A stretch of DNA of 64,000 nucleotides from an uncultured delta proteobacterium. GTDB taxonomy: Bacteria; Desulfobacterota; Desulfomonilia; UBA1062. Location: assembly GCA_963847605.1 (NCBI GenBank), contig CAWKAM010000009.1, forward strand, positions 12,028 through 76,027. The letters are read 5' to 3'. Shown here in pieces: positions 44,688-62,188 of this stretch; positions within the stretch are counted from its first letter, which is position 1, and each line of letters opens with the position of its first letter. Under the pieces are notes generated by a model. That model did no database searches and had not been told where the DNA came from. It saw only the letters and a program-made list of their open reading frames with translations. The translations under genes were made by a program, and so were the position numbers.

Positions 44688-44720
44688 ACCCCGCAGCGTG
44701 TCGCGGGGTTGTTTTTATCT
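44688..44720 (+). terminator. Rho-independent terminator after ugd
   Basis: GC hairpin 'caaccccgc-agcgtgtc-gcggggttg' followed by TTTTTAT. Confidence 0.7.
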
Positions 44721-47239: not shown

Positions 47240-48655
47240 TCATTGTTCGGAACCTCGGCATCCCAGATTTAATGCCAATTCATTACTGATGGCTGCGAAT
47301 TCCTGTTCCACCGCCTCGCGCTTGTCGATGCATCTGCTGCGAAGTGCGGAAACTATTCTGCCGTGCTCTGTCAGTATGCTGGACAAGGATTCCTGGGCTT
47401 GAAAAGAGGTGAAGGTTTCTAGATTCAGACAGAATCGCTCTTGCCCCATGTCTTCCATGTGGACCATCACCTTCCTGCGGTATGAGATAGCCAGCACAGG
47501 TACCCCGCTGATATGGCTCAATAGGACACCATGCAGACGGCTCGCAACCACGGCGTCGCAGGATCTCAGTAAGTTTGTTAGTTCCTGAAGCTTCAACAAG
47601 GGGAAAAGCTGGACGTGTCCCCCGTTAGAACCCGCGCTCACAAGTTGATCGTAGAGTAACTTCGCCAATTTAGTATCCCCGCCATCGGTGATGAATATCT
47701 TCAGGGAGTGGTTTGCTTTGAGAAGGGAAGCAGCGAAAACCCTTAACTCATGCCAGTATCGTTCGAAAACATCTCTATGAATCGTAGGCCAGCTGCCCTC
47801 GAGACCGAAAGAGATAGGGCTCAAGCCGATAGTGAGGTGTGATTGTGCCGGAGCTTCTGTAAACGGTGTATCGCCGTTCAGTGTCGACATTCCGAAGGCT
47901 AAATCGGGACAAGAGATAAGCTCGCGTTGAATGCCCAACCTGCGAAGAATTTCGAGGGACCCGGCATCACGCAGCGACACCCGGCGAGCCTGTACAAGTA
48001 TACGTCGCAAAAACCACCCGCTGAGTGAATGGTGGAGATCATCGACCCCGACACCAACAAAGAAAACAGGTACATGTGCGATACGAGCCAGGGTGATCCA
48101 CTTGAACATTGAATATGGATGGCCCCATGGGCCGCCATACTCGTCATCAAATTGACCACCTCCAGCGATAATCAATGCGTTCAGGGAGCGGACTACTCTG
48201 CGGGCTTGAAGCAAATGACGCGATTCAAGTGCAATCATTTGCATGCTATCCCGTAGACGCCTTGCTACTGGCAGAACCAAAGGTATGCGCCCGGCAGTCT
48301 TCTTGAGCACGGTCCTCAAGTCAAGGCGTGGGGATGCAACGCCAGTGGTGTGGGGTAAAGGCATAGTTTGCTCGGAAGGCTTCAACATCCATGTACTAAA
48401 ATAGTATGGCCGAGGAATGGCGGCAAGAGGAAAGCCCTCCAGGCCGTGAAGTTTTGAGGCATACTCGTAATCCAAGACAATCAAGAGAACTTCGGCCTTC
48501 GGGGATAGCCGGATCAAGTGAGTTCGCGCCGATTCAATGATAGCTGCATCTCCCAAGTTTGTGCCCCAATAGGGACTTATCAATCCTATGCGTGGGCTCT
48601 TTTCGGTTTGATTCGAAGGGATTTCCATGTTGTTTTGGGTGCATTTACCAAACAT
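47240..48655 (-). CDS. Polysaccharide pyruvyl transferase family protein
   Basis: '[16 protein letters not shown]' Gx-N-x-GD motif. 471 aa, larger than typical family members. Confidence 0.55.
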
Positions 48656-48719: not shown

Positions 48720-50300
48720 TTAGTAACTATAAGCAGCTCTTTTCAGTGTACTTATGGAAAGATACAGTACCGCATCGCTGTGGAATGGTGCGGCAAACGA
48801 CCGGGAGGCACCGCCCTCGATAGTATCGCCTGACTGTGTAATTCCTGATATGGGGTTGAGCCACTCTACATCGAGCTTCCCGGATGAATGAGAGAGGTCT
48901 ACGGTAACTTTGCCATCTTGAGGTGCATAAATCAGATATTCTTTCCCATTTTCGGCGAGACAGTATCCGGAAGAGGCCAGATCCGGCCGGGGCACCATAC
49001 CCACCAGATGAATCCTCTTGGCGAAGGTTAGCGTATACCCCATGTTCCTGCGCATGAGTTCCCATTCCGGGCTGGCTGGATCACAATAATATTCTGGAGG
49101 GTTATGAAGTACGTTCGCGTTATAAGGATCCATGAAAATCGGGTTCAGGCCCCTGAGGAAACTTTCCCATATCCACCGGTAGTCTCCGCCCATCCCCCAT
49201 AAATGGTCCGTGTCACTAATGATGATCTTTCGTCCGTCCGCCACGGGCGGATTGTCTTTATACCCGCCCTGAGAATTCGGGGATACCGCCTCAGCAGGAC
49301 TTTTAAAGAGGGCACTGTTCTCTCCTCCCGGCCATTGTGCGGTCATCCACACCGGGTGTCTCCTGCCCTTCTTCCCCTCGTAGGCATGAATGAAATTGAT
49401 CATGTGGTACTGCCACAGAGTTGAATCGCTGTGGCCTTCATTGGATATCTCCCACAATACATTATCCAGGTCATTCAATGTATCTATGACTTTTTTAACG
49501 TATTCTTCCTGCAGCTTTGTTATACGGGGCAAGTTCATGGTATGAATTTCTCGGCCGTCACCCTTCCCCAGAGGATCTCCATCGATTCCATTGATATTGT
49601 TTCTGGCATTAAACGGATGTCCTCTCCATGGGTTGTTTTCTTCGGTGAGCATTGCCCCTAAACGCACCTTTCGAAGCATCCTCCTAAGATACCATTTTAA
49701 CTTGCTGTCAGTATTTACCCCCTTGATCTCAATGCTGAAACCTTGAAACAGCATAATGGAAACATAAATGCCCTTCCCCTGTGCCGAGATCACCCGTGCA
49801 CGCAATCTGTCAAAAAATTTCTGATTGAACCTGGTAAGGTCGAATTTTGGTTTTCCATCAAGGGCTTCCCCCGGCCCGGTTCTCTCATAGGGCATAGGGC
49901 TGAACACAATCTTTTCCTTTGTGCCCTGGAACCACGCAGCATGTTCCCATACCCATAGACGGATGAAGTTGTGATTATGCTTCTTAAGAGAATCAAGGTA
50001 AGCTGCGTAATTGAAAGGAGGTGTATTTTCATCCCCTATCTCCTGGAAATTGTTCCACGTGTGCGACCCGGTCAGATAGACGGCTTTCCCTGTTCCGTCG
50101 GTAAAATATCTCGGGTTGGTAGGATTTACCGTAAGTGGTCCCATGGGTAAGACACCTCTTGTTTTGGTCAGGGTTGCCCGACTACCGGCCATCAGTTGCG
50201 TGCTATCTGCGGCCAATAGCACTAGCGCAATCAATAATATTAAGCTATAAGCCGACGGCTGCTTCACATCATTCACAATCTCAGTATCAATGCGAATCAA
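48720..50300 (-). CDS. Membrane-anchored or secreted glycoside-hydrolase-like protein (GH5-like/DUF4038-type)
   Basis: N-terminal TM/signal 'LILLIALVLLAA'. 'NPRYFTDGTGKAVYLTGSHTWNNFQ' resembles cellulase-like putative glycosidases. Family assignment is tentative. Confidence 0.45.
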   Translation of the reverse strand: MIRIDTEIVNDVKQPSAYSLILLIALVLLAADSTQLMAGSRATLTKTRGVLPMGPLTVNPTNPRYFTDGTGKAVYLTGSHTWNNFQEIGDENTPPFNYAAYLDSLKKHNHNFIRLWVWEHAAWFQGTKEKIVFSPMPYERTGPGEALDGKPKFDLTRFNQKFFDRLRARVISAQGKGIYVSIMLFQGFSIEIKGVNTDSKLKWYLRRMLRKVRLGAMLTEENNPWRGHPFNARNNINGIDGDPLGKGDGREIHTMNLPRITKLQEEYVKKVIDTLNDLDNVLWEISNEGHSDSTLWQYHMINFIHAYEGKKGRRHPVWMTAQWPGGENSALFKSPAEAVSPNSQGGYKDNPPVADGRKIIISDTDHLWGMGGDYRWIWESFLRGLNPIFMDPYNANVLHNPPEYYCDPASPEWELMRRNMGYTLTFAKRIHLVGMVPRPDLASSGYCLAENGKEYLIYAPQDGKVTVDLSHSSGKLDVEWLNPISGITQSGDTIEGGASRSFAAPFHSDAVLYLSISTLKRAAYSY

Positions 50301-50403: not shown

Positions 50404-51558
50404 TCAATCAGCCATTGATTGCATCCAGTGCGTAAGGACCCTCTCGCGCCCGCTGCCTTCCGCAGCAAGCGCCTTTGCAAGGTCCGCTTCGATGGCCACT
50501 TGCGCCTCTCGACCATGCAAATACAACTGCCAGAGCGGTGTTGCATGGAGAGTATTCATCTTACCCATGGCCTTGGCTAGGGAGAGACGGTCCACCATCT
50601 CATCGTACCGTGCGATCTCTCGCTGATACGTCTCGTACAGTTCTGTCCGGAGCACATGAGAGAGAGGTTCATAGTCGCTGTATTCACCCGGCTGATGACG
50701 TTCAATACCCGTGGGTGCAGGATCGAACAGACAGAAGAGCGATACGTACCCGTCGACAATGTGAACTTCGTGCTTATTGCGAAGGAATTGCTTGGCCTGG
50801 GTTTTCTCGTCGATGCGGCATTCCTCTTCGGAGCTCCCGGCGGCTTCGTTCAGATGATAGGTGGAGTCGCCATCGAGTGACAACCACGGGCCCCATAGCT
50901 GGTTCGTATACTGGTACGGGTGCTTCGCCATACGCACGCGGGCGGTCCCTTTCACGTCGTAGCATATGTTGAACTCGGTTCGGGAGTTGTATGACATCTT
51001 GAACACCGGCTCCCCGTCCTCGTTTCCGGGGAGACCGGCCACGTCGAACATTGTGGTGCGAAACCAGGAGACGGGATTCCCGGATCTAGATAGAAGAATC
51101 GGGTCATGATGCAGAAAGATACGGCGGCTCAAATACTGGGGGGTGAGGATCCACCGAAGTAACTGAGATCCCGAAGCACAGGCCGCAAGAAATGTTTCGT
51201 CGCGAAGCAGCAGCCTTTTGCCGCGGGTCTGTGAGGCAGTTGGACTCGATACGCGCAAGACTTCGGTCTCCGGTTCCGCTTCGAGGGCGGTCTCCAGCCC
51301 GGGCGGAAGATAGAGGTGCACGCCTGCCTCCAGGTGAAGCGGTTGTTTGCCGTCACCCGGAACGTATAGGTTCCCTCTTCCTCGAAGAACGCTGATGATG
51401 TGGCCGACGCTTGCTCCCGGTGTGAGGCGCCCGGCCTCGGAGAACCGGATACGATCGACGTCCAGCCCCTCGGGATGTATGTCGTGCTTCAGGATTTGAG
51501 CACGGGCAAAGGGCTCTCCTGATTCACGACGCCATTCGTTCTTGATGAGCTTTTGCAT
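50404..51558 (-). CDS. Hypothetical protein
   Basis: 384 aa, no motif recognised. Embedded in the polysaccharide locus. Confidence 0.4.
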   Translation of the reverse strand: MQKLIKNEWRRESGEPFARAQILKHDIHPEGLDVDRIRFSEAGRLTPGASVGHIISVLRGRGNLYVPGDGKQPLHLEAGVHLYLPPGLETALEAEPETEVLRVSSPTASQTRGKRLLLRDETFLAACASGSQLLRWILTPQYLSRRIFLHHDPILLSRSGNPVSWFRTTMFDVAGLPGNEDGEPVFKMSYNSRTEFNICYDVKGTARVRMAKHPYQYTNQLWGPWLSLDGDSTYHLNEAAGSSEEECRIDEKTQAKQFLRNKHEVHIVDGYVSLFCLFDPAPTGIERHQPGEYSDYEPLSHVLRTELYETYQREIARYDEMVDRLSLAKAMGKMNTLHATPLWQLYLHGREAQVAIEADLAKALAAEGSGRERVLTHWMQSMAD

Positions 51559-51860: not shown

Positions 51861-53444
51861 TCATTTAAGCGCGCTCAACTTTTTTCTATCTATCTTTCCG
51901 GATGAAGTTGTAGGCAGGGAGTCGCGGAATTCAATAATCTCCGGGATCATGTACTTCGGCAGTTGTCTGGAACAATACTTCAGAATGTCTTCCTTTTCGA
52001 TCTTACCTGGTGTCAATGGAACTATGACCGCCGAGATTCTATTCCCTATTAGCTCGTCCGGGATCGGGATGATAACGGCATTCTTAATATCCGGATGATT
52101 GCACAGGACAGTTTCAATTTCTCCGATCTCAATCCTGTACCCCCGGCTTTTTATCATATGATCTTTCCGGCCAAGGAAAACATAGTTTCCATCAGTATCC
52201 AGGCGGACCAAATCGCCGGTTCTGTAAACTATTTCATTCAAGTCAGGCCTGAGGGGGTTTTTCACAAAGCACTCTTGACTTTTTTCAATATCGTCCCAAT
52301 ATCCTGCTGCAACCGAAGCAGCCCTCACATATAATTCTCCTTTTTCTCCAGGCTTTTTAACCTTTTTTCCCTCTTCGTCCAGGGCAAAAATCTCGAAATT
52401 CGGGAATGATCTACCTATTGGAAGTACTGCTGCGTCATCCGATGGAATTTGTTCAACCCGATAATACATTGAAGAATTCGCTTCCGTTTGTCCGTATATA
52501 TTGTAAAATTTCCCTCCGGGGACTGCTTTCTGGACTCGCCGCAGATATTTTATGGGGAATACCTCACCTGCGAACAGAATCAATCGTAGAGAAGAAAAAT
52601 CATACTTATCCAGATTCGTAAAGTTCGCCAAAAGAGTGAGCGCCGACGGCACCGAATTCCATACCGAGATTTTTTTCTTCTCTATGTATTCAGCCAGCTG
52701 AGACGGAAAGATGGACGTGCTCTCTGGGATGATGACAACAGAAGCCCCTGCCTTGAATGCAACGAAGATGTCAAACACGGACATGTCAAAGTGCAGGGGG
52801 CAGATGTTGGAAACCCTGTCATTCGTTTCTATTCCAAAAAAGTCATGCACCGAATTCACAAATGTCAAAGAGTTGCGATGCGATATCATGACCCCTTTGG
52901 GATTGCCTGTTGACCCGGAAGTAAAGAGGATATACGCTAAATCCGAATCTATCGTGTTCATGCATGGAGTCTCACTCCTTGCAGCCTCCCTCATCTGATG
53001 CCAGTCAATCAATTTCACGGATCCGAGTGACCCGGAATCTGAATCCAAGCCATTCATGACAAGAACACTTTCCAAAGGCGATGATCCGGGAAACGCCCGC
53101 TCTACATTTGTCAGCTTTTCTTGAGAAGTTAACAGCAACTTAATTCCACATCTGTTGACAATATAACTGAGACGGCTGAGCGGGCACATGGGATCTATGG
53201 GAACATACGTGGCCCCTGCTTTCAGGATCCCCAAAGCCCCGGCTATTGAATTTATGCTCCTGTTCATGTGTATCCCGACCCGTGCCCCTCTTTCTATGCC
53301 GATTTCTGAGAGACAATGAGCCAGTTTGTCGGTTTCCTTCTCCAATTCGGCATAGGTTATGGACTTGTCTTTAAAAGCCAATGCCTCCTTTTCCGGATAT
53401 TTCGCCGCACTCTCAGACAATAATTGGTGCAGTAGGTAGACCAT
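51861..53444 (-). CDS. AMP-dependent ligase, DltA-like carrier-protein ligase / adenylation enzyme
   Basis: 'YILFTSGSTGNPKGVMISHRN', 'FDMSVFDIF' and C-terminal 'SSGKIDRKKL' closely parallel DltA landmarks (from memory). Confidence 0.8.
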   Translation of the reverse strand: MVYLLHQLLSESAAKYPEKEALAFKDKSITYAELEKETDKLAHCLSEIGIERGARVGIHMNRSINSIAGALGILKAGATYVPIDPMCPLSRLSYIVNRCGIKLLLTSQEKLTNVERAFPGSSPLESVLVMNGLDSDSGSLGSVKLIDWHQMREAARSETPCMNTIDSDLAYILFTSGSTGNPKGVMISHRNSLTFVNSVHDFFGIETNDRVSNICPLHFDMSVFDIFVAFKAGASVVIIPESTSIFPSQLAEYIEKKKISVWNSVPSALTLLANFTNLDKYDFSSLRLILFAGEVFPIKYLRRVQKAVPGGKFYNIYGQTEANSSMYYRVEQIPSDDAAVLPIGRSFPNFEIFALDEEGKKVKKPGEKGELYVRAASVAAGYWDDIEKSQECFVKNPLRPDLNEIVYRTGDLVRLDTDGNYVFLGRKDHMIKSRGYRIEIGEIETVLCNHPDIKNAVIIPIPDELIGNRISAVIVPLTPGKIEKEDILKYCSRQLPKYMIPEIIEFRDSLPTTSSGKIDRKKLSALK

Positions 53445-53694
53445 CCTTATAACCTCCCTAAGAAATAATTCTGCTCATCGAACGTGTTTGGGGGAAACTG
53501 GACGTACTATCTGACGGGGCAATGCATGCCTCTGTTTGGTGGAAACCACTGAAAATCAAATTGAGTGGATGTGATTAATAAATTTTAGATGCGGCCACAG
53601 CCGGGCTCCGTGCCCTACTCTACCCCATTTGTCTCATATGGATGTCACCTTTGCTTCATTATCCCGGGTTACCAAGACCACCATTAATACTCTT

Positions 53695-56600
53695 TTATTG
53701 GGCCGGCTGTAAGGTGGCATACAAGGACCAATGAACCGTGGCGCTTGTGGGCGATGTGGAGAAGGTGCCGGGCATATCCGCGTAGGTGTAGCTGTAAAAT
53801 CTGGCCGATCCTGTGAGCGCATCCCTGAAACCCAGGCTGTTGCTTGATGGGAGATAGGCCAGCCAGTATGTACCCGCCGGCAGCGACACTTGTGAAATTA
53901 CATTCGCAGTGTTCCATCCGCTTACCGGTGTAAATGAGGCTGTCCGGGCTTTGAGAGTTCCAGGGCCACCGTTGGGTCCGGTGGCGTCATAGATACCCAG
54001 CTCCAGGCTGCCAGCCGCGGTCGTGACGTAGAAACTCATGCTCACTACAGTGCCGGTTTGCCCGAGGCTCGCCTGCTGGGCAATAAGCCCATTGCCATTC
54101 CCATTATCGTTGGTGCTCAGGATGCTGGTTTCTCCAATGGTAAAGGAACTGGCTGCCGTGACGGTCACGCTGGCCGTTCCGCTCACACCACCGCTCGCGG
54201 CGGTAACCGTGTACGGCCCACCCGCCGTGCTGCCTGCGGTGAAAAGGCCACTGCTCGTGATCGTTCCACCACCACTCACCGTCCAGCTGAAGCTGGGCTG
54301 CGGCACCATGGCGTTACCCGACTGATCATTCGCCGTCGCGGTGAACTGCTGTGTTCCATTCACCGCTACACTGGCCGATGACGGTGTTACGCTGATGCTG
54401 GTTAGGATCGAGCCCGTCCCGGCGAAGCTCGCCGCGATCGTATGGTTGCTGCTGACACTGCTGAAGGTATAGGTACCCACCGCTCCAACCGATGCCCCGT
54501 CAACGGTAACGGCGCTGATGGCATATCCGCTGCTGGCCGTGATGGTGAAGGTCTTGCTTGACCCGCTACTCACCGAGACGCTCCCCGAGGGGGAGATAGA
54601 CCCGCCCGTGCCTGCAGTGGCGGTAATGGTATAGGTCTGGGCAGCAACAAAGCTCGCCGCGATCGTATGGTTGCTCCTGACACTGCTGAAGGTATAGGTA
54701 CCCACCGCTCCCACCGATGCCCCGTCAACGGTAACGGCGCTGATGGCATATCCGCTGCTGGCCGTGATGGTGAAGGTCTTGCTTGACCCGCTACTCACCG
54801 AGACGCTCCCCGAGGGGGAGATAGACCCGCCCGTGCCTGCAGTGGCGGTAATGGTATAGGTCTGGGCAGCAACGAAGCTCGCCGCGATCGTATGGTTGCT
54901 CCTGACACTGCTGAAGGTATAGGTACTCACAGCTCCCACCGATGTCCCATCCACGGTAACTGAGCTGATAGTATATCCGCTCTTCGCAGTGATGGTGAAG
55001 GTCTTGCTTGACCCCCCACTCACCGAGACGCTTCCCGAGGGAGAAATGGTGCCGCCTGTGCCTGCGGTGGCGGTGATGGTGTAGGTCTGGACAGCGAAGC
55101 TTGCCTTGATCGTATGTTTGGCTGTCACGTTACTGAAGGTATAGGACCCCACCTTACCCACCGATTTCCCATCCACGGTAACGGAGCTGATGGCATATCC
55201 GCTGTTCGGTGTGATGGTGAAGGTCTGATTTGACCCTGAATTCACCGAGACGCTCCCCGAGGGGGAGATGGACCCGCCCGTGCCTGCGGTGGCGGTGATG
55301 GTGTAGGTCGTGGTAGCAACGAAATTCGCAGCGATACTATGGTTGCTGGTTACGTTTGTGAAGGTATAGGAACTCACCGCTCCTACCGATGTCCCATCCA
55401 CGAGAACTGAGCTGATGGCATATCCGCTGTTCGATGTGATGGTGAAGGTCTGGTTTGATCCTCCACTCACCGATACGCTTCCCATGGGGGAGATGGAACC
55501 GCCTGAGCCTGCGGTTGCAGTAATAATAATTGACCCATGATCAGGAAACAGGCTCGTAAATGTATATGTCTGTGGCTGAACATTCGCTGCGGTTTGAACA
55601 CTGCCATTAACGATTGTGGCAAATGAGACATCAAAATCCATCGTGTTTGGCCGGACTACAGTGGTCATTATTGTCGGGGCTACAATATCGGCAACTTCCT
55701 CCAGAAGATACCATGACTCCAAAGAATCCACAACTTTATCGCCGGCACTATAAAGACTGATCAGTCCATTATTCAACGTGTTGTAACGCGTGATGGTATC
55801 ACCCGATGAAGGGGGTGGGCTTATCTCAATAAAGTGATTCGTGGCTATGATTTGGTCGTAGTTGGGATTAGTATACGCGGCCCAGCGGATTAAAGCCCCC
55901 AAGATAGGAGAATTTTCAATGTAATAAACAGGATCGCTGGACCCTTGGTAGGGACTGCCGATCAGGATAATAGTCGGCGTGTAACTATATACCGAATTTA
56001 CAATAGACAGCGGTTGAGTTAAGTAACTGTCATATGTAGTGTTCTCAAGAATATAGCGGAGAGTTTCAGTTATTGGATGGAATGGTCCATTGCTGGTTGC
56101 ATTGTTGCCATTGCCTGAATTCACCATCACGACGATGCCGTCTTCGTTCATGCCCGATGTAACACCAAACCAGCCGGGCCAGCCAAAGGAAACAAGCTTT
56201 GGCATGCCGGTCGGCTCGTAGGTGATCAGCATCTGGTCTTTGAGAAGATTTCCTTGACTATCATAGGGAAAGTCATAATCTCTTGCTACAATCGTATCTC
56301 CGTTTCCAGTCGAGTTTCCCCAAACGCCGAAAGAGGAGCAGCTGAACCAATATTCAACAAAGAGGTTGAGGCACTCGATGTCCAGAGCACCGATATTTCT
56401 CCCCAGACTCGTAACATAGAGATTTTTGCCGCTGGCATTCATGCCATCCACCATGCCGCTTATTTCGTCCAGATATTGAGGGAAAAAGGTATGAACGGTG
56501 GGGATCAGGGTAAGACGATTGTTATAATCCGAAACATTGCCGTTGGCTATCACACCGATCAACCAGGTATCAATCAGGTCGCGGATCTTATCAGCCATCA

Positions 56601-56796
56601 AGTAGCCATGGGCATAACCCATCTCATAATATGAACCCCAGAGGTTGAGAACATTCTGATTGCCGACTTTCTCGAAACTGCCATTGATCGACGTTTGAGC
56701 TAAAGATTCATCTATAAAGCCATTCCCAAAAACAAGAAAACAAGAAAATAACAATAAAAGAAATGGCTTCAACACTCTCCTATGAAAAATTATCAT
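53695..56796 (-). CDS. Large secreted multidomain protein: Ntn-hydrolase (C45/choloylglycine-hydrolase-like) domain + 6 tandem 75-aa repeats + Big_2-like domain
   Basis: GGGAGG RBS and signal peptide 'MIIFHRRVLKPFLLLLFSCFLVFG'. 'YEMGYAHGY' and 'CSSFGVWG...ARDYDFP' suggest an Ntn-hydrolase Cys nucleophile. 'SISVTPSSASVAVNGTQQFTATANDQSGN' is Big_2-like. Confidence 0.6.
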   Translation of the reverse strand: MIIFHRRVLKPFLLLLFSCFLVFGNGFIDESLAQTSINGSFEKVGNQNVLNLWGSYYEMGYAHGYLMADKIRDLIDTWLIGVIANGNVSDYNNRLTLIPTVHTFFPQYLDEISGMVDGMNASGKNLYVTSLGRNIGALDIECLNLFVEYWFSCSSFGVWGNSTGNGDTIVARDYDFPYDSQGNLLKDQMLITYEPTGMPKLVSFGWPGWFGVTSGMNEDGIVVMVNSGNGNNATSNGPFHPITETLRYILENTTYDSYLTQPLSIVNSVYSYTPTIILIGSPYQGSSDPVYYIENSPILGALIRWAAYTNPNYDQIIATNHFIEISPPPSSGDTITRYNTLNNGLISLYSAGDKVVDSLESWYLLEEVADIVAPTIMTTVVRPNTMDFDVSFATIVNGSVQTAANVQPQTYTFTSLFPDHGSIIITATAGSGGSISPMGSVSVSGGSNQTFTITSNSGYAISSVLVDGTSVGAVSSYTFTNVTSNHSIAANFVATTTYTITATAGTGGSISPSGSVSVNSGSNQTFTITPNSGYAISSVTVDGKSVGKVGSYTFSNVTAKHTIKASFAVQTYTITATAGTGGTISPSGSVSVSGGSSKTFTITAKSGYTISSVTVDGTSVGAVSTYTFSSVRSNHTIAASFVAAQTYTITATAGTGGSISPSGSVSVSSGSSKTFTITASSGYAISAVTVDGASVGAVGTYTFSSVRSNHTIAASFVAAQTYTITATAGTGGSISPSGSVSVSSGSSKTFTITASSGYAISAVTVDGASVGAVGTYTFSSVSSNHTIAASFAGTGSILTSISVTPSSASVAVNGTQQFTATANDQSGNAMVPQPSFSWTVSGGGTITSSGLFTAGSTAGGPYTVTAASGGVSGTASVTVTAASSFTIGETSILSTNDNGNGNGLIAQQASLGQTGTVVSMSFYVTTAAGSLELGIYDATGPNGGPGTLKARTASFTPVSGWNTANVISQVSLPAGTYWLAYLPSSNSLGFRDALTGSARFYSYTYADMPGTFSTSPTSATVHWSLYATLQPAQ

Positions 56797-57213
56797 GGCA
56801 GGTCCTCCCTTTCCCGTAAGGAACTTCAAAGAGATCCTTGTGATCCAAATTCATAATAATACCTTGTCTCCTGTAAAACAAGCCCCTCACAAGTGCCTGA
56901 ACGAATAATGTGCGTTTATCATTTATTATAATCTACCTCTTTATATTTTATTATAAAATATATCTTTTGTCAATATTTATTTTACTATTCTTAAATCAAA
57001 ACCCTTCATAAAAGAATCTAAAATATTGAAAAGATACAATGAGAACAGTAGCCGTATTACTGATATGCACCATAATATAACGCAATGGAGGTGCCAAGGG
57101 CCGTAATTGTCCAACATAATGATTATACTTATAAATAAATCTTAACTTCGATTGCCGATTATTGGGTAAGTGAAAAGAAATGCCCATTTTCCGTAAGGGA
57201 TTCCCAATATTTA

Positions 57214-58359
57214 TTAAAGCCCCAAGTACCGGGCGATGATATTCCTCTGTATCTCAGAGGTCCCGGAATAGAGAGTACTTCCAATGGAATCTCGTAAATC
57301 GCGTTCCAATTCATATTCAGTGGTATAACCGTAACCCCCGTGAATCTGAATGGCATCAAGGCAAGACTTTATCCATGATTCACTCAGATAAAGCTTTGTG
57401 ATGGCAGCCTCCATGGTCGCCTTGCCATGGGTCTTCTTCATCCAGGCCAGTTTGTATAACATCAGTCTGGCCGTTTCCATTCTCACCTTCATGTCAACGA
57501 TCTTATTGGCAACAGACTGATACTTACCGATTGATTTACCAAATTGCTTCCGTTCCTTGGAATATTTTATACATCTCTCCAGTTGCCTTTCCATGCCACC
57601 CAGTAAACTGGCCAAAATGCAACTCCTCTCCCATTCTATTGAGTCATCGAATATTGCCGCACCATTGCCTTCTTTTCCAAGACGATTCTCTGCGGGAACT
57701 TTGCAATCTTCAAGAATCAATTCGGCAAAAGGAGCCGTTCGTAAACCCATTTTTCCTATGTCCTTGCTTACACAAAAACCAGGATAATCTCTTTCAATAA
57801 TGAATGCAGTCACACCCATAAATCCCTTCCGCTTATCTACAGTAGCAAATACTACAAATACATCGGCCAACGGCGCCATGGTGCAGAACGTTTTTGTCCC
57901 ATTTAAGATATAATAATTACCGTCCAACCTCGCTGTTGTTCGAAGGCTGTAGGCATCGGAACCCGAGTCCGGCTCGGTAATGCTGTCAGCTCCGATCAAT
58001 TCGCCACTGCAAAGTCTAGGTAAATACCTGTTTTTCTGTGCTTCGGAACCAAACTTCAATATCGGCATTTGAACGGACCACATCTGGCCGTTGATTGCGA
58101 ATATCAACCCACTGTCTTTGCATCCATATCCCAATCCTTCCATGAGGAGCAGGGTGCTCATGATATCAGCGTTGTTTCCTCCGTACTGTTCCGGAAACGC
58201 AGAGCCCTGTATTCCGAAATTTGCACATTTTTTCCAGAGTTCACGGGGGAAGACAGCATCTCTGTCCCTTTCAATGACCCCATCGTTGAGCGCCTTCTGA
58301 GCAAAACGGATAGCCCTTTCCTTGTATTCTAACTGCTCTTTGCTAAATTCAAAATCCAT
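57214..58359 (-). CDS. Acyl-CoA/acyl-ACP dehydrogenase family protein
   Basis: 381 aa. ACAD fold with C-terminal 'IYSGTSEIQRNIIAR' signature. Confidence 0.85.
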   Translation of the reverse strand: MDFEFSKEQLEYKERAIRFAQKALNDGVIERDRDAVFPRELWKKCANFGIQGSAFPEQYGGNNADIMSTLLLMEGLGYGCKDSGLIFAINGQMWSVQMPILKFGSEAQKNRYLPRLCSGELIGADSITEPDSGSDAYSLRTTARLDGNYYILNGTKTFCTMAPLADVFVVFATVDKRKGFMGVTAFIIERDYPGFCVSKDIGKMGLRTAPFAELILEDCKVPAENRLGKEGNGAAIFDDSIEWERSCILASLLGGMERQLERCIKYSKERKQFGKSIGKYQSVANKIVDMKVRMETARLMLYKLAWMKKTHGKATMEAAITKLYLSESWIKSCLDAIQIHGGYGYTTEYELERDLRDSIGSTLYSGTSEIQRNIIARYLGL

Positions 58360-58605
58360 AATGTCACCTCATTCTCCATTTCTTTGCATCATAAGGTATT
58401 ACTGCTAAAATCTTAAGGATTCTTATATGCTGGAATATCTTTGACTAAAAGCCTTCTTACAATACATTTTAAACAGACCACCGTTCAGAGGGTTTTTTCT
58501 TTCTCCCGGGATTGTCAAAAACCTGAAGTCATTATGGCTGAGCCGGTGGCTTGCCCGGATTACGTATCTGTGTAAGAGTGCATGACTTTAGACCATAAGT
58601 GTAAA

Positions 58606-58857
58606 CTACTTATTCCCCATTTTCTGTTCGACAAACTTGACCATGTTATTAAGAGTTTGAAAGTTCTCTGGGACGATTTCATCGTCAGTGACAGCTATAC
58701 TAAAGGTTTCCTCCATAAAAAGTATCAACTTCATGATCCCTAAAGAATCAATAATTCCCTTCTCAAGAAGATCTTCATCAGGTGTCAGGGATTTTTTATC
58801 AAGATTGACAGCAATCTCATTAATCAAAAATCTTTCAAGATCTTTTATAATGCTCAT
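58606..58857 (-). CDS. Acyl/aminoacyl carrier protein
   Basis: 83 aa. 'GIIDSLGIMKL' phosphopantetheine-attachment Ser. Confidence 0.85.
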   Translation of the reverse strand: MSIIKDLERFLINEIAVNLDKKSLTPDEDLLEKGIIDSLGIMKLILFMEETFSIAVTDDEIVPENFQTLNNMVKFVEQKMGNK

Positions 58858-59027
58858 TGGAATATCACCTCACTTTTTATATATTCGTAGATATACATTT
58901 TCTCAATAATTATTGTTACTATATTCCTCTTATAATTTAAGCATATTCAATAACTTGTACTATCCTCAATTAAGATGTTTTCCTCTTGATTCATTTCTAA
59001 TCTAAAAGACGCAACAGCCATTATGAC

Positions 59028-59921
59028 CTACACACCTTCAGGAAAGATTCCAAAAGCTTCAACATACTGACTTGGACGCCACGACGGTCCTCTTACCATG
59101 AGAATATCTATACAATAGAGTTTAAAGCCCAACTCTTGAAGTGCTTTAACAAGCATAAAATCTCTAGCCATGACACGCGTTCGACAAGATCGCTTTTTGA
59201 AAGTTTCTAGTGCCTGTCGAAACAAAAACTCAGCTTCCTCTTCTCCTTCGGCAAGCAAGGGACCGAGCTGAACCCCTCTCGGTCCGGGAAGACATGCCAG
59301 ATAACCTTTGATATGCGAGTGACTTCGATAAACAAAAATCTTGCCCCACCGGGAAAAATATCTGAGGTCTGTTCGTCGGTCAAATTTACTTCGCGGAAAG
59401 TCATATGCACAAAGCTCATCGAGATCATTTGCGCTTAATTCGTTTACACTGCTGCAAAGATCCGGATTCCGTTCAACTCCCTTATCCAGGATTAAATCCA
59501 TTAGAGTTGCCACTGGCATATACTTGAATGAATATAGGAAAGAAAAGGTTTCAGGATTGTAGGCCTCCTGGATACATCTCGTACTTTGCAACCCTTCCAC
59601 CCTCTTGAAACAAGCATTCATGAGTTCCCGTCCAACACCACCGCCTTGAGAATAAGGATCAATGGCAAGAGGTCCATGACCTCCATTTTCACCCCTTGGG
59701 TTCAGACAAATTATTCCTACGACCCGATCCCCCACCTCAGCAACCAAACGTACACACGGTCCATGGTGGAGCATTGCCCAGGCCCAGGACTTTCCTTCAT
59801 TGACACTCTGTATTTGCGGGGCATAACCATATTTCAATGCATTTTTATTAAACGCTTCATGAAAAATTTCTCCTACCCGGTCTATATCCGCCTTAGTCAT
59901 ATCACGTATTTGAGGCCTCAT
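59028..59921 (-). CDS. GNAT-family N-acyltransferase
   Basis: AAGGAG RBS before the internal Met. 'VGIICLNP...GPLAIDPYSQGGGVGRELM' acyl-CoA-binding GNAT core. Confidence 0.65.
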   Translation of the reverse strand: MRPQIRDMTKADIDRVGEIFHEAFNKNALKYGYAPQIQSVNEGKSWAWAMLHHGPCVRLVAEVGDRVVGIICLNPRGENGGHGPLAIDPYSQGGGVGRELMNACFKRVEGLQSTRCIQEAYNPETFSFLYSFKYMPVATLMDLILDKGVERNPDLCSSVNELSANDLDELCAYDFPRSKFDRRTDLRYFSRWGKIFVYRSHSHIKGYLACLPGPRGVQLGPLLAEGEEEAEFLFRQALETFKKRSCRTRVMARDFMLVKALQELGFKLYCIDILMVRGPSWRPSQYVEAFGIFPEGV

Positions 59922-60137
59922 CGTAATCTCCTTAACGTTACATAACAATTAACCTCAATCTGCTTGGAAAAACCTTTAAGACCCTCAATCTTTAAAACTT
60001 TGAACACACGCCCCATAAATATATTGCTTTGATCGATCACAAACAGAAAACTCCTTTCTGTTTAGACACCTATCAGTTTAGTCCGAAAGTCATTCTTTGA
60101 ATAATTTGATGAGTAACGTATTATCTTTGTTCGTTTT

Positions 60138-61172
60138 TTAGACTTTATATCCACGCAGGAAACTATTTGTGTTAAGATAAGTCATAGCGCAGAATTCTAT
60201 GTTTCTGAAGCCAGCTTCTTGGAACCAACGTGTAGTTTCCACCTGAGAGTGGTTCTTTCCTTCAGCTGTAACACAAAGCATCATAAGATCCAGGAAGATC
60301 GGCCATCTTCCGCCAAGACGATCGTCCCGTAGATATTGGGCCTGAATAACCAGTGACCCGCCATAATTAATGGAGTTATATAAGCGCTTAATGAGCATGC
60401 GGCTTGCATTCTCCCCTAGTCCATGCAGTGTGTTAGAGACAAGTATCATATCATACGAACCGGGAATATCATCTTTCAGAGCATCCAATGGCAGATATTG
60501 AATTTTGTTCTTGAGGGAGTATCTTGTCTGAACCTCTTTTGCATTTTCCAGAACCTCAGAGAGGTCCAGAAGATAGAGCTCTAAGTCTGGGTTATACATA
60601 CCTAAATGAAAGGCATATGTTCCAGGACCACAACCAAGATCAAGTAACGACTTACATCTATCCGTGCTAAGGAATTTGGCCAATTCCTTTCCCCGCAGTG
60701 AAGCATAGTTGTGCATACCCAGTGTGAATTCCCGCGTACTTTCTTTGTCACCCCTGACATGCTTTGACGGATCAATGGTTGGTCCAGATTTTAATATTGC
60801 TTCATCAAGTTTTGATAGTGCTGCATAAAAGATTTCCAAACTGCTGATCCAGTTGCCGATATAATGTTCACCGGCAGAAGGTGACAATACTGTGCGACAC
60901 ATTGGTGCTATGCTGAAATTGATGCCATCTGCGGATTCAAGTAGTTTCAAAACAACCCCTGCATTCAATAATCGCGAAAGTGTCTCCGGCCGTGTATGCA
61001 ACTCCTCGGCAAGCTCATGCAAAGTTTTACTACCATTGTCTATACGTTCAAAAACTTTCAGCTTTAACAAAGCAAACAAAATACTGGACTGATAAAATCC
61101 CTCTGCGATAGAGAGTACTGCAATTTGGTTTCTTTTAACTGTCAGGTCCGATATTGGTTCGTCTTGAGACAT
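60138..61172 (-). CDS. SAM-dependent O-methyltransferase (dimerisation domain + class I MTase)
   Basis: 'LLDLGCGPGTYAF' motif I. N-terminal winged-helix-like region. Confidence 0.75.
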   Translation of the reverse strand: MSQDEPISDLTVKRNQIAVLSIAEGFYQSSILFALLKLKVFERIDNGSKTLHELAEELHTRPETLSRLLNAGVVLKLLESADGINFSIAPMCRTVLSPSAGEHYIGNWISSLEIFYAALSKLDEAILKSGPTIDPSKHVRGDKESTREFTLGMHNYASLRGKELAKFLSTDRCKSLLDLGCGPGTYAFHLGMYNPDLELYLLDLSEVLENAKEVQTRYSLKNKIQYLPLDALKDDIPGSYDMILVSNTLHGLGENASRMLIKRLYNSINYGGSLVIQAQYLRDDRLGGRWPIFLDLMMLCVTAEGKNHSQVETTRWFQEAGFRNIEFCAMTYLNTNSFLRGYKV

Positions 61173-61186
61173 AGTACCCCCACTAA

Positions 61187-62188
61187 TCATTCAGTTAAGT
61201 TTTCCCATCGCTTGTTTCGCGTATTCCAGCGTCGGCCACTCCCAATCTCATATATGCTCTGTGTCGGGTTCTCTCCGATTGCGACTTCCAGTGTATCGAT
61301 CAGTTTATCCATCACATCAACATCATTGCCCGCCTCATTACCAATGTTGCGAATTGGAACTCCCCAGTCCAGCACTATAGTTCCATCACTCTCCAGAAGA
61401 GAAACGCAGCTAATGATTGGGCATTTAGCTAAACGAGCTAACTGTGCAGCCCCTGTTGAAAACACTCGGTTTTTATGTCCCGCAAAGGGTCTTTCGTAAG
61501 ATCCTGTCGGAGTTTTATGCCAGAGCGCGTCAACGGCCATGTAAACGACATTTTCTCGTTCGTAGAGCCGCTTATAAAGTGTCCTGGCAGTACGCAGGTC
61601 AGATCCCATAAATACGATTTCAATATCCCTTTTCCAGCAAGAAGATAAGGCCTGCAGCAATGCCCCATATTGAATACGAATACGCAGATCATAAAGGCTC
61701 CGAATTCGCTTCCGAGGTTCACTACCAACATTGATAGGGTGACCATAAGTGACGCCGGGAGAAAATATACTCAGACCAGGTTCTTTAGGAAAATGCGCAC
61801 TGGCTATGATGTACGAATCACCAGACTCCCTCAGACTGTTTATACCATCAACATTTTTCTCAACGATTCGCCAGTTGGACGGATCTTCGCGCCGGTAAAT
61901 CAAACGTTTAAGCTTGACGAAATCGCTCAGTGGCCTGGCCAGCCAGCCCCAGGCGAGAAAGAACGATTCAAGGCGGCCCTTTCCGAAAGCGCTTCGCATC
62001 TGCCAATATGCATGAAAGCCCGGTACTGGTAAAACCGCCAGTGATAGTGCAAGGGCATCGGCGATTCCCAGGGCCCATTTTCTCGGCAGTGCATACGCAG
62101 CCGGTGCAAGGATGAATTGCATACTCACAATGCGTATGAACTGTTCGACGTGGTAGCTTATCCGGATTATCTGTTCTCTCATATTCAT
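61187..62188 (-). CDS. Putative LpxL/HtrB-like membrane acyltransferase
   Basis: N-terminal hydrophobic anchor. 'YIIASAHFPKEPGL' resembles the lipid A late acyltransferase H-F/G-x-WE region. Weak call. Confidence 0.35.
   Translation of the reverse strand: MNMREQIIRISYHVEQFIRIVSMQFILAPAAYALPRKWALGIADALALSLAVLPVPGFHAYWQMRSAFGKGRLESFFLAWGWLARPLSDFVKLKRLIYRREDPSNWRIVEKNVDGINSLRESGDSYIIASAHFPKEPGLSIFSPGVTYGHPINVGSEPRKRIRSLYDLRIRIQYGALLQALSSCWKRDIEIVFMGSDLRTARTLYKRLYERENVVYMAVDALWHKTPTGSYERPFAGHKNRVFSTGAAQLARLAKCPIISCVSLLESDGTIVLDWGVPIRNIGNEAGNDVDVMDKLIDTLEVAIGENPTQSIYEIGSGRRWNTRNKRWENLTE

What the first reader, a model, noticed from the sequence alone, without database searches (positions are those of the whole stretch)
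51861..59948. Dlt-like ligase/carrier pair with ACAD and GNAT embedded in a Wzm/Wzt polysaccharide locus
A DltA-like AMP-ligase (51861-53444) and an 83-aa carrier protein with a DSLG phosphopantetheine site (58606-58857) share one strand with an acyl-CoA dehydrogenase, a GNAT and a surface Ntn-hydrolase protein. They are flanked by glycosyltransferases and an ABC glycan exporter. In Gram-positives DltA/DltC D-alanylate teichoic acids. Similar ligase/ACP sets load unusual acyl groups onto amino sugars, for example the Vibrio cholerae O1 perosamine tetronate genes. I also recall exosortase/PEP-CTERM-associated ligase/ACP families. Here DltB/DltD are absent, and a dehydrogenase, a GNAT and an LpxL-like enzyme are present instead. 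This points to an uncharacterised acyl or aminoacyl decoration of an exported glycan.
Basis: partly seen in the sequence, partly recalled or inferred. Interest (0 to 1): 0.75.

Follow-up and report, generated by a model that had tools for sequence, protein, structure and literature searches.

The report
Proline-type carrier-protein cassette in glycan locus
Inside a polysaccharide-export gene cluster sits a small enzyme set related to the one that turns proline into a pyrrole or pyrroline ring on a carrier protein, plus an uncharacterised bicupin protein, and it recurs in sugar-polymer loci of many uncultured bacteria, so it probably adds an unusual, so far undescribed ring-shaped acyl group to an exported sugar polymer.

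Summary
The "Dlt-like" label is wrong.

- **Dehydrogenase (57214-58359):** its best solved relatives are the prolyl-carrier-protein dehydrogenases AnaB (478 bits, ungapped, 53% identity), Bmp3 and PigA.
- **Ligase (51861-53444):** a stand-alone amino-acid adenylation enzyme. Its best single-domain match is the proline ligase PltF.
- **83-aa protein (58606-58857):** a type II carrier protein.

Ligase, carrier and dehydrogenase therefore resemble the known proline-to-pyrrol(in)e-2-carboxyl-S-carrier cassette. Two points differ from it:

- The ligase pocket code is DMFNLAISSK, not the published stand-alone proline code DL(L/F)YLALVCK.
- The variant code was found only next to a fourth, overlooked gene (50404-51558). 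This is a bicupin of unknown function, from a small family with no Pfam or NCBIfam model.

The cassette recurs in more than 25 loci from uncultured Nitrospirota, Desulfobacterota, Omnitrophota and others. It nearly always sits inside Wzm/Wzt or XrtA/PEP-CTERM polysaccharide loci. A dedicated double-GNAT gene lies directly upstream of the carrier gene in 11 of 11 loci inspected.

Most likely function (inferred, not shown): an oxidised proline-like acyl group is made on the carrier and moved onto a sugar of an exported glycan. I rate this a new variant of a known kind.

The parts
63542..64000 (-). Wzm-like ABC-2 permease. The gene runs off the window end, so only the C-terminal 147 aa are seen.
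   Evidence: 60-63% identical to the 261-aa proteins in L005 and L012 that carry PF01061 ABC2_membrane.
62342..63532 (-). Wzt ATPase with a C-terminal glycan-binding domain.
   Evidence: ABC_tran 76 bits and Wzt_C 66.9 bits (cut-off 30.4). Best NCBIfam matches are teichoic-acid and galactan exporters.
61187..62188 (-). Membrane-anchored divergent LpxL/LPLAT-like acyltransferase (weak assignment).
   Evidence: PF03279 18.4 bits, below the 22.3 cut-off. Three of 5 orthologues hit the model, best E 1.2e-5. Follows Wzt directly in the window, L005 and L012, and is present elsewhere in the locus in L008 and L013. His132 is invariant.
60138..61190 (-). Small-molecule-type O-methyltransferase. Accessory, not universal.
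   Evidence: Methyltransf_2 71.5 bits plus the dimerisation domain. Orthologues sit next to the cassette in L049 (72% identity), L041 and L046.
59028..59948 (-). Double-GNAT protein (GNAT2), the candidate acyl transferase. The probable start is the ATG at 59921.
   Evidence: Acetyltransf_1 plus Acetyltransf_18. The family has only 102 proteins in 5.8 billion. It lies directly upstream of the carrier gene in 11 of 11 loci inspected.
58606..58857 (-). Stand-alone carrier protein, with the phosphopantetheine serine in GIIDSLG.
   Evidence: PP-binding 30.3 bits. PDB matches include type II peptidyl carrier proteins (PigG, PltL, the Bmp1 carrier domain) and DltC. Sequence shown.
57214..58359 (-). 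Prolyl-carrier-protein-dehydrogenase-like flavoenzyme (ACAD fold).
   Evidence: 4IRN AnaB 478 bits, ungapped over 380 aa, 53% identity. Bmp3 348 bits and PigA 330 bits. NCBIfam PigA model 458 bits (cut-off 500) and RedW model 398.
53695..56829 (-). Secreted C45-family Ntn acyltransferase/hydrolase with five InlB B-repeats and other Ig-like domains. A recurrent accessory. The probable start is the ATG at 56796.
   Evidence: NF040521 121.5 bits against 85. Residues 12-429 are 63% identical to the L086 827-aa protein. A C45 protein also follows the cassette on the contig carrying P0412. An 11/12 promoter-like site lies at 56973-56945. 225-nt tandem repeats at 54420-55616.
51861..53444 (-). Stand-alone amino-acid adenylation enzyme (type II NRPS A domain) with the variant pocket code DMFNLAISSK.
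   Evidence: TIGR01733 381 bits against 317. Best single-domain PDB match is PltF, 297 bits. Code extracted and validated against relatives that carry the published proline code.
50404..51558 (-). Bicupin with a C-terminal helical hairpin and no known function. Fourth core gene of the cassette.
48720..50300 (-). Secreted glycosidase-like protein.
   Evidence: Apiosidase-like, DUF6298 and Collagen_bind_2 domains. Orthologues in L012 and L013.
47240..48655 (-). Polysaccharide pyruvyl transferase.
   Evidence: PS_pyruv_trans 112.5 bits.
46195..47229 (-). Family 2 glycosyltransferase.
   Evidence: Glycos_transf_2 91.4 bits.
44937..46178 (-). Family 4 glycosyltransferase, the last gene of the minus-strand block.
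   Evidence: Glyco_trans_1_4 95 bits.
44681..44716 (.). Bidirectional terminator-like hairpin (15 pairs) between the GT4 gene and the convergent UDP-glucose dehydrogenase gene.
43324..44661 (+). UDP-glucose/GDP-mannose dehydrogenase, convergent with the glycan block.
   Evidence: All three UDPG_MGDP_dh domains.

Best explanation
The core is a four-gene module: a stand-alone adenylation enzyme, an 83-aa carrier protein, a flavin dehydrogenase of the prolyl-carrier-protein type, and a bicupin of unknown function.

Proposed steps:
1. The ligase adenylates an alpha-amino or imino acid and loads it as a thioester on the phosphopantetheine arm of the carrier. Family membership is shown; the substrate is inferred to be proline or, more likely, a ring-substituted or otherwise modified proline-like acid.
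2. The dehydrogenase oxidises the tethered ring. The product is a pyrroline-carboxyl thioester (two electrons, as in AnaB) or a pyrrole-2-carboxyl thioester (four electrons, as in PltE, PigA and RedW). This is inferred from homology.
3. The dedicated double-GNAT encoded just upstream of the carrier moves the acyl group to an amino group of a sugar. Less likely, the LpxL-like enzyme moves it to a hydroxyl. This is inferred from gene order only.
4. In this window the O-methyltransferase may add a methyl group.
5. The decorated, lipid-linked glycan is exported by Wzm/Wzt.

The bicupin is tied to the ligase and to its altered pocket. It probably makes or edits the unusual substrate. The secreted C45 Ntn enzyme may later trim or transfer the acyl group outside the cell; this last point is speculative.
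For: Dehydrogenase:
- The three best solved relatives are all prolyl-carrier-protein dehydrogenases. AnaB scores 478 bits and aligns without gaps.
- The ...EWER... glutamate (E244) is conserved in the window protein, AnaB, Bmp3 and PigA.
- The top NCBIfam models are PigA (458 bits) and RedW (398 bits).

Ligase:
- It passes the amino-acid adenylation model.
- It keeps the Asp and Lys at the two ends of the 10-residue pocket code, positions that are highly conserved in amino-acid adenylation domains.
- PltF is its best single-domain structure match.

Relatives:
- Relatives whose dehydrogenase is 57-73% identical have ligases with exactly the published stand-alone proline code L(L/F)YLALVC (PMC3874040).
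- Nine such loci carry a Trp-halogenase-family FAD enzyme beside the trio. From my own knowledge, halogenases of this kind (PltA, Bmp2) act on pyrrolyl-S-carrier.

Glycan link:
- The cassette lies between Wzt and glycosyltransferases here.
- In more than 25 independent loci it sits with Wzm/Wzt, DegT aminotransferases, NeuD/PglD-like acetyltransferases, initiating sugar transferases, Wzz, Wza, or a full XrtA/PEP-CTERM set above NCBIfam cut-offs.
- No condensation, ketosynthase or thioesterase domain lies next to it in the window clade.
- There is no strong terminator inside the block 44937-64000; one lies at 44681-44716.

GNAT2:
- The family has 102 members, and it was next to the carrier gene in 11 of 11 loci inspected.

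Bicupin and pocket:
- All 13 bicupin-linked ligases have F239, N278, S/T330 and S331.
- None of the 27 primary ligases in loci without a detected bicupin has N278 or S/T330.
Against: - The ligase code matches the stand-alone proline consensus at only 3 of 8 inner positions, so proline itself is not established.
- The PigA equivalog cut-off is missed (458 against 500).
- No acceptor sugar pathway (DegT and similar) is visible inside this window, because the operon continues past 64000.
- Intergenic gaps inside the cassette are large (170-417 nt), and the C45 gene has its own promoter-like site, so a single transcript is not shown.
- Many host lineages are anaerobes. AnaB is described as an oxidase, so the electron acceptor here is unknown.
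- The donor specificity of GNAT2 (acyl-carrier or acetyl-CoA) is unknown.
- No polysaccharide carrying such an acyl group turned up in the two literature searches aimed at it.
Confidence: 0.55

Rival explanations
1. Dlt-like aminoacylation. The ligase loads an amino acid such as D-alanine on the carrier, and it is transferred unoxidised to a glycan or teichoic-acid-like polymer.
For: DltA and DltC models give partial scores (288.6 and 38.1 bits). DltA and DltC structures appear among the PDB matches. The Wzt protein resembles TagH.
Against: - Both scores are far below the equivalog cut-offs.
- No DltB-like or DltD-like protein appeared in the Pfam scans of the window's 43 longest ORFs.
- A prolyl-carrier dehydrogenase homologue is conserved immediately beside the carrier in every locus, which a plain aminoacyl transfer would not need.
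- The closest ligase structure is PltF, not DltA (297 against 211 bits).
Confidence: 0.05
2. The cassette makes a free or lipid-bound small molecule, such as a pyrrole-containing metabolite, an aminolipid or an N-acyl amino acid. It is merely co-located with envelope genes.
For: - All characterised relatives (the Plt, Pig, Red, Bmp and Ana pathways) make small molecules.
- Acidobacterial relatives have NRPS modules next to the trio.
- An LpxL-like lipid acyltransferase homologue is present.
- The carrier weakly resembles the ornithine-lipid ACP model (40.8 bits).
- PEP-CTERM loci are known to hold acyl-ACP-dependent N-acyl amino acid synthases. This is my own knowledge; the papers found were not read.
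Against: - No condensation, ketosynthase or thioesterase partner lies in the window clade.
- The cassette is interleaved with Wzm/Wzt, sugar aminotransferases and sugar N-acetyltransferases in the same orientation in many lineages.
- The Wzt here has a glycan-binding Wzt_C domain.
Confidence: 0.2
3. The substrate is not an imino acid at all. The variant pocket takes another polar amino acid; the first seven code positions resemble the cysteine code as I recall it. The flavoenzyme then desaturates or oxidises that aminoacyl thioester.
For: - The code DMFNLAISSK / DLFNHSISSK differs from both published proline codes.
- Asn278 and Ser330/331 make the pocket more polar and roomier.
- The dehydrogenase shows clade-specific changes to smaller residues (A91G, T68S, P54A).
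Against: - The dehydrogenase is 73% identical to those paired with canonical proline-code ligases (L015, L016, L018). It aligns without gaps to AnaB.
- The bicupin-linked ligases branch inside the stand-alone proline-type ligase tree.
Confidence: 0.15
4. The acyl group is put on a surface protein rather than on a glycan. Candidates are the large Ig-repeat proteins encoded inside several cassettes, or PEP-CTERM proteins.
For: Large, variable Ig-repeat surface proteins are inserted between the dehydrogenase and ligase genes in the window, L002, L014 and L049. Some loci are XrtA/PEP-CTERM loci.
Against: - The inserted proteins are not homologous to one another across loci, and many loci lack them.
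- The carrier-bound donor is cytoplasmic, while these proteins are secreted.
Confidence: 0.05

Closest known systems
Type II NRPS proline-to-pyrrole cassettes: PltF/PltL/PltE (pyoluteorin), PigI/PigG/PigA (prodigiosin), RedM/RedO/RedW, Bmp4/Bmp1/Bmp3
   Same: The same three protein types occur as separate genes: a stand-alone adenylation enzyme, a small carrier protein and an ACAD-fold dehydrogenase. PltF, PigA, Bmp3, PigG and PltL are among the best structure-database matches.
   Different: - The ligase pocket code is DMFNLAISSK, not DL(L/F)YLALVCK.
- The PigA model cut-off is missed (458 against 500).
- There is no downstream PKS, NRPS or halogenase in the window.
- The cassette is embedded in a glycan-export operon.
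- A bicupin and a double-GNAT are added.
AnaC/AnaD/AnaB of anatoxin-a biosynthesis
   Same: AnaB is the closest characterised relative of the dehydrogenase (53% identity, no gaps). The logic of proline activation, loading and oxidation on an ACP is the same (PMC6053186).
   Different: - AnaB stops at pyrroline-5-carboxyl-ACP and hands it to a PKS; no PKS is present here.
- Whether this enzyme performs a two- or a four-electron oxidation cannot be told from sequence.
CloN4/CloN5/CloN3 with CloN1, CloN2 and CloN7 (CouN1 and CouN7 in coumermycin): transfer of pyrrole-2-carboxyl to the deoxysugar noviose (from my own knowledge)
   Same: This is the only precedent I know in which a carrier-bound pyrrolyl-2-carboxyl group ends up acylating a sugar.
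   Different: - The acceptor there is a small-molecule antibiotic, not a polymer.
- The transferases belong to other families, not GNAT or LpxL-like.
- None of this was tested here.
DltABCD D-alanylation of teichoic acids
   Same: An adenylation enzyme plus a small carrier protein modify a cell-envelope polymer.
   Different: - DltA and DltC model scores are far below their cut-offs.
- No DltB or DltD is present.
- A dehydrogenase is present.
- The hosts here are probably diderm.
Exosortase-A/PEP-CTERM-associated ligase family TIGR03098, and the Vibrio cholerae O1 perosamine tetronate genes
   Same: Ligase/ACP sets lie inside polysaccharide loci. TIGR03098 is the top-scoring NCBIfam model for the ligase, and relatives of the cassette lie in genuine XrtA loci.
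   Different: - The score of 400.7 is below the 592.35 cut-off.
- Those sets are not known to include a prolyl-carrier dehydrogenase or this bicupin.

Membership tests
Type II NRPS prolyl-to-pyrrol(in)yl-S-carrier cassette | Stand-alone amino-acid adenylation enzyme | tested here: met
   TIGR01733 scores 381.5 against a cut-off of 317.4. PltF is the best single-domain PDB match at 297 bits. The Asp and Lys at the two ends of the pocket code are present.
Type II NRPS prolyl-to-pyrrol(in)yl-S-carrier cassette | Pocket code of stand-alone L-proline ligases, L(L/F)YLALVC between the conserved Asp and Lys (PMC3874040) | tested here: not met
   The window has MFNLAISS, with 3 of 8 positions identical. 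Relatives in 24 other loci match the consensus exactly or nearly, which validates the column mapping.
Type II NRPS prolyl-to-pyrrol(in)yl-S-carrier cassette | Small stand-alone carrier protein with a phosphopantetheine serine | tested here: met
   PP-binding 30.3 bits against 20.8. The GIIDSLG motif is present. PigG and PltL are among the PDB matches.
Type II NRPS prolyl-to-pyrrol(in)yl-S-carrier cassette | ACAD-fold dehydrogenase orthologous to PigA/RedW/AnaB | tested here: inconclusive
   The best PDB relatives are AnaB (478 bits), Bmp3 and PigA. However, the NCBIfam PigA model scores 458 against 500, and the RedW model 398 against 650.
Type II NRPS prolyl-to-pyrrol(in)yl-S-carrier cassette | Demonstrated loading of proline and oxidation on the carrier | not testable with these tools
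   This needs biochemistry.
DltABCD D-alanylation system | DltA and DltC equivalogs | tested here: not met
   TIGR01734 scores 288.6 against 559.85. The DltC model scores 38.1 against 68.
DltABCD D-alanylation system | DltB (MBOAT) and DltD present | tested here: not met
   Neither family appeared in the Pfam scans of the 43 longest ORFs of the window.
Exosortase-A-associated acyl-CoA ligase (TIGR03098) | Score above the model cut-off | tested here: not met
   400.7 against 592.35 for the window ligase, and 342.7 for the L086 ligase.
Exosortase-A-associated acyl-CoA ligase (TIGR03098) | Location in an XrtA/PEP-CTERM polysaccharide locus | tested here: inconclusive
   Met in relative L086: TIGR03007, TIGR03018, TIGR03015, TIGR03016 and TIGR03006 all score above their cut-offs. 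No such genes were seen within the 64-kb window.
ABC-transporter-dependent (Wzm/Wzt) glycan pathway | Wzt ATPase with a C-terminal glycan-binding domain, plus an ABC-2 permease | tested here: met
   ABC_tran plus Wzt_C (66.9 against 30.4). A partial Wzm gene lies adjacent.
C45 autoproteolytic acyltransferase/hydrolase family | Score above the model cut-off and a conserved nucleophile cysteine | tested here: met
   NF040521 scores 121.5 against 85. The Cys in WFSCSSFG aligns with FFGCSSLG in the L086 orthologue.
LpxL/LPLAT lipid A late acyltransferases | Pfam PF03279 above cut-off and an HX4D/E motif | tested here: inconclusive
   18.4 bits against 22.3. Three of 5 orthologues match, best E 1.2e-5. 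The His is invariant, but the acidic residue at +5 is not conserved.

The most novel reading that the evidence does not exclude
A widespread, previously unrecognised class of polysaccharide decoration. Uncultured, mostly anaerobic bacteria (Nitrospirota, Desulfobacterota, Omnitrophota and others) would N-acylate an amino sugar of an exported, often PEP-CTERM-type, polysaccharide with a pyrrole- or pyrroline-carboxyl group. That group would derive from a non-standard proline analogue. A new bicupin enzyme family would supply or edit the substrate, a dedicated double-GNAT would take the acyl group from the carrier protein, and a surface Ntn enzyme would remodel it. Relatives with halogenases would then imply halogenated pyrroles on glycans.
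Probability: 0.4. Interest if true: 0.8.

Novelty: new variant of a known kind. Interest (0 to 1): 0.68.

Why it matters
Carrier-protein pyrrole chemistry is known only from small-molecule antibiotics, pigments and toxins. Finding it wired into polysaccharide export would have three consequences:

- **A new acyl group for glycans.** It would add a heterocyclic acyl group to the known repertoire of bacterial glycan decorations, in abundant environmental lineages that have never been cultured.
- **Concrete assignments to test.** It gives hypotheses for three uncharacterised families: the bicupin, the double-GNAT and the C45 surface enzyme.
- **A marker for mining.** The ligase code signature D-x-F-N-x-x-(I/M)-(S/T)-S-K is a simple sequence marker for such loci. 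The substrate question can be answered directly with recombinant proteins.

Tried and rejected
**Structure and family searches**
- The first structure prediction of the bicupin, from a shallow alignment, gave pLDDT 58.7 and was discarded. The deeper alignment gave 93.7.
- Fold searches returned only generic bicupins at about 10% identity, so no function could be read from them. The afdb50 library was unavailable.
- PDB sequence searches for GNAT2 and the LpxL-like protein gave nothing useful.
- Profile comparison of the alternative small upstream proteins (c25, c40 and the L084 227-aa protein) with GNAT2 was not significant. The idea that every variant has a GNAT upstream rests on Pfam for c40 only.

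**Source and wider context**
- The source contig of the window could not be fetched. The organism name and the genes beyond 64000 remain unknown. The closest genome relatives are Thermodesulfovibrionales/Nitrospirota MAGs.
- The plasmid collection holds only distant homologues, below 54% identity.
- Rfam found only a tRNA.
- No shared intergenic repeat was found inside the cassette.

**Literature**
- The two searches aimed at a pyrrole-2-carboxyl group on a polysaccharide found nothing relevant. A search on PEP-CTERM ligase/ACP sets returned papers that were not read.
- The AnaB structure paper is not in the library. Naming E244 as the catalytic base rests on my memory.

**A corrected conclusion**
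- I first judged the C45 gene to be a non-conserved insertion, on the basis. I revised this.

Full report
**1. The observation**

ORF listing and translation confirm an uninterrupted run of minus-strand genes from the window end down to 44937. In the direction of transcription they are:

| Gene | Coordinates |
|---|---|
| Wzm (partial) | 63542 to window end |
| Wzt | 62342-63532 |
| LpxL-like protein | 61187-62188 |
| O-methyltransferase | 60138-61190 |
| Double GNAT (GNAT2) | 59028-59948 |
| 83-aa carrier protein | 58606-58857 |
| ACAD-fold dehydrogenase | 57214-58359 |
| 1044-aa secreted C45 protein | 53695-56829 |
| Ligase | 51861-53444 |
| Glycosidase-like protein | 48720-50300 |
| Pyruvyl transferase | 47240-48655 |
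| GT2 | 46195-47229 |
| GT4 | 44937-46178 |

Pfam and NCBIfam support each assignment. A 15-pair bidirectional hairpin at 44681-44716 closes the block against a convergent UDP-glucose dehydrogenase gene. Terminator-like hits inside the block are at chance level (18 found, 17.7 expected).

**2. What the three central proteins are**

*Dehydrogenase.* It is not a generic acyl-CoA dehydrogenase.
- Its best solved relative is AnaB, the prolyl-ACP dehydrogenase of anatoxin synthesis (4IRN). The match is 478 bits over 380 aligned residues without a gap, at 53% identity.
- Next come Bmp3 (348 bits) and PigA (330 bits), both prolyl-carrier-protein dehydrogenases. Ordinary butyryl-CoA dehydrogenases follow only after these.
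- The NCBIfam models for PigA (458 bits) and RedW (398 bits) are its top hits, but both fall below their equivalog cut-offs.
- The glutamate in ...EWER... (E244) is conserved in the window protein, AnaB, Bmp3 and PigA. That this residue is the catalytic base of AnaB is my recollection; I could not verify it.

*Ligase.* It passes the amino-acid adenylation model. Its best single-domain structure match is the proline ligase PltF at 297 bits; DltA scores 211.

*Carrier.* It has the GIIDSLG serine motif. Its PDB matches include type II peptidyl carrier proteins (PigG, PltL, the Bmp1 carrier domain) as well as DltC.

Together these are the parts of the known cassette in which proline is loaded on a carrier and oxidised to pyrroline-5-carboxyl (AnaB; PMC6053186) or to pyrrolyl-2-carboxyl (Plt, Pig and Red pathways; PMC7723355).

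**3. A variant pocket and a fourth gene**

I extracted the 10-residue specificity code by motif anchoring and a MAFFT alignment of 42 ligases from related loci.
- Twenty-four ligases from other clades read DL(F/L)YLALVCK or differ from it at one or two positions. This is the published consensus for stand-alone L-proline ligases, L(L/F)YLALVC (PMC3874040), so the column mapping is sound.
- The window ligase and its close relatives read DMFNLA(I/M/L)(S/T)SK.
- A second, more distant group (L084, L086, L087) reads DLFNHSISSK.

Every one of these 13 variant-code ligases lies in a locus with a homologue of the 384-aa protein at 50404-51558. None of the 27 primary ligases in loci without a detected bicupin has Asn278 or Ser/Thr330.

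In a neighbour-joining tree the variant-code ligases form one clade inside the proline-type ligases. The association could therefore be a single ancient event. It has nonetheless been kept while the ligase diverged to 45-53% identity and the dehydrogenase to 51-55%. The 384-aa protein stayed at 67-70% in L086 and L087 and 48% in L084.

The dehydrogenase of the window clade also shows clade-specific replacements by smaller residues: A91G, T68S and P54A.

Read together, the pocket looks roomier and more polar. This points to a substituted or otherwise non-standard proline-like acid rather than proline itself. That is an inference, not a demonstration.

**4. The 384-aa protein**

- It has no Pfam match above cut-off and no NCBIfam match.
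- It has only 76 representatives at the 50% identity level among 1.84 billion proteins.
- With a diverse alignment, AlphaFold gives a confident model (pLDDT 93.7, pTM 0.92) of two cupin barrels followed by a long helical hairpin.
- Residues invariant across the family include five arginines together with E238, H263, E264, E286 and H288.

Because its distribution tracks the ligase, I propose that it makes or edits the ligase substrate. I hold this with low confidence.

**5. Genomic context elsewhere**

The dehydrogenase family is abundant in metagenomes. At least 120 clusters are 79% or more identical to the window protein. In species-representative genomes it occurs only in uncultured lineages, apart from the most distant hits: Thermodesulfovibrionales/Nitrospirota, Syntrophobacteraceae, Smithellaceae, Omnitrophota, Gemmatimonadota, Acidobacteriota, Krumholzibacteriia, Anaerolineae and others.

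In the window clade the order carrier, dehydrogenase, ligase, bicupin is conserved. It is flanked by:
- Wzm/Wzt;
- DegT aminotransferases;
- NeuD/PglD-like hexapeptide acetyltransferases;
- initiating sugar transferases;
- glycosyltransferases.

I then picked three further loci only because their GNAT2 homologues lay on contigs absent from my earlier lists. All three show the same layout: Wza, chain-length determinant, tyrosine kinase, PEP-CTERM ATPase, outer-membrane protein, deacetylase, Wzm, Wzt, hexapeptide acetyltransferase, GNAT2, carrier, dehydrogenase, ligase, bicupin. In L086 the five flanking proteins tested pass NCBIfam's XrtA/PEP-CTERM cut-offs.

The clades with the canonical proline code also sit in glycan-type contexts:
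- GT87, GT2-GtrA, a MurJ-like flippase, a FemAB-like protein and a deacetylase in L015 and L018;
- Wzz and an initiating transferase in Acidobacteria;
- a sulfotransferase and a Wzx-like flippase next to a halogenase-bearing cassette in L030.

This breadth is the main argument that the product ends up on a glycan.

**6. Who transfers the acyl group?**

*GNAT2.* It belongs to a family of only 102 proteins. It lies immediately upstream of the carrier gene in all 11 loci where I could look. It is often preceded by DegT and a sugar N-acetyltransferase. From my own knowledge, GNAT-fold enzymes that take acyl groups from ACPs are well known: AHL synthases, the N-acyl amino acid synthases of PEP-CTERM loci, and OlsB. 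GNAT2 is therefore my first candidate for N-acylation of an amino sugar.

*Alternative accessories.* Some loci replace GNAT2 with another set: a 220-aa protein, a glyoxalase-fold protein, a 605-aa protein and a second carrier-like protein (L005, L013, L057). Another has two KAS III-like proteins (L084).

*LpxL-like protein.* It follows Wzt directly in the window, L005 and L012, and its family assignment is weak. It may acylate a hydroxyl or the lipid anchor.

*O-methyltransferase.* It is present in only a few loci.

**7. The C45 protein**

I first took it for an insertion. Large, mutually unrelated Ig-repeat proteins occupy the same slot in L002, L014 and L049, and it has its own 11/12 promoter-like site.

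However, its catalytic N-terminal 420 residues are 63% identical to a protein that follows the bicupin in L086. A similar protein follows it on the contig carrying P0412. It is therefore a recurrent accessory. The protein is secreted and belongs to a family of amide-cleaving or acyl-transferring Ntn enzymes. A role in trimming or moving the acyl group outside the cell is possible, but untested.

**8. Comparison with known systems**

- The module works like the Plt, Pig, Red and Ana cassettes. It fails one defining test for membership, the proline code, and narrowly misses another, the PigA equivalog cut-off.
- It is not a Dlt system.
- It is not a member of the exosortase-A ligase family TIGR03098.
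- The closest functional precedent for a carrier-bound pyrrole ending on a sugar is the clorobiocin/coumermycin pathway. This is from my own knowledge and was not tested here.
- The two literature searches aimed at such a group on a polysaccharide found nothing.

**9. Verdict**

The finding is a new variant of a known enzymatic cassette, recruited to polysaccharide loci and extended by an orphan bicupin and a dedicated GNAT.

Shown here:
- the family relationships;
- the code difference;
- the gene associations.

Inferred:
- the identity of the substrate;
- the oxidation state of the product;
- the transfer step;
- the glycan as acceptor.

Noticed in passing
window 40711-40786 and 40000-43300: A tRNA-Phe (GAA) lies at the edge of an ORF-poor stretch of about 40% GC. 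The stretch separates housekeeping genes (cysS, uvrB, a WaaP-like kinase, a PlsC-like acyltransferase) from the glycan block. This may mark an integration or recombination boundary.
   Followed up: partly
window 9200-20000: This block has 58-62% GC, against 40-50% in the rest of the window. It holds an ABC transporter, a cysteine-synthase-like PLP enzyme and bioB-bioF-bioD-bioA (12946-17176). The composition jump is unexplained.
   Followed up: no
window 54420-55616: There are five tandem 225-nt (75-aa) repeats inside the C45 gene, encoding InlB B-repeat domains. Two copies are 97% identical, which suggests recent duplication or a risk of assembly collapse.
   Followed up: no
window 56945-56973 (minus strand): The best sigma-70-like match in the region (11 of 12 positions) lies just upstream of the C45 gene, next to two 25-nt AT-rich direct repeats at 56915-56964. 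The C45 gene may be transcribed on its own.
   Followed up: no
L002 11172-15317; L014 11516-18490; L049 12982-14961: In three relatives the same slot between the dehydrogenase and ligase genes holds very large (659-2324 aa), mutually unrelated surface proteins rich in TIG/Ig repeats. This recurrent insertion point is unexplained.
   Followed up: partly
L005 6396-9508; also L013 and L057: An alternative accessory set replaces GNAT2 upstream of the carrier gene: a 220-aa protein, a glyoxalase-fold protein, a 605-aa protein with no family, and a second weak carrier-like 83-aa protein.
   Followed up: partly
L030 13482-14852; also L022, L032, L034, L035, L036: Relatives with the canonical proline code carry a tryptophan-halogenase-family flavoenzyme beside the trio. 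In L030 this sits next to a sulfotransferase and a Wzx-like flippase, which hints at halogenated pyrroles in a glycan context.
   Followed up: partly
L084 521-9152: A distant bicupin (48% identity) sits with the carrier, dehydrogenase and ligase, together with two KAS III-like proteins and a TylF-type methyltransferase. From my own knowledge, KAS III-like enzymes are known ACP-to-sugar acyltransferases.
   Followed up: partly
L004 8849-9868: A radical SAM enzyme is inserted between the carrier and dehydrogenase genes in one Nitrospirota relative. In that genome the bicupin is elsewhere on the same 369-kb contig.
   Followed up: no
window 51861-60138, intergenic gaps: Gaps between cassette genes are 170-417 nt here, against 14-30 nt for the GNAT2, carrier, dehydrogenase and ligase junctions in L087. 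No shared repeat or Rfam element was found in them.
   Followed up: partly
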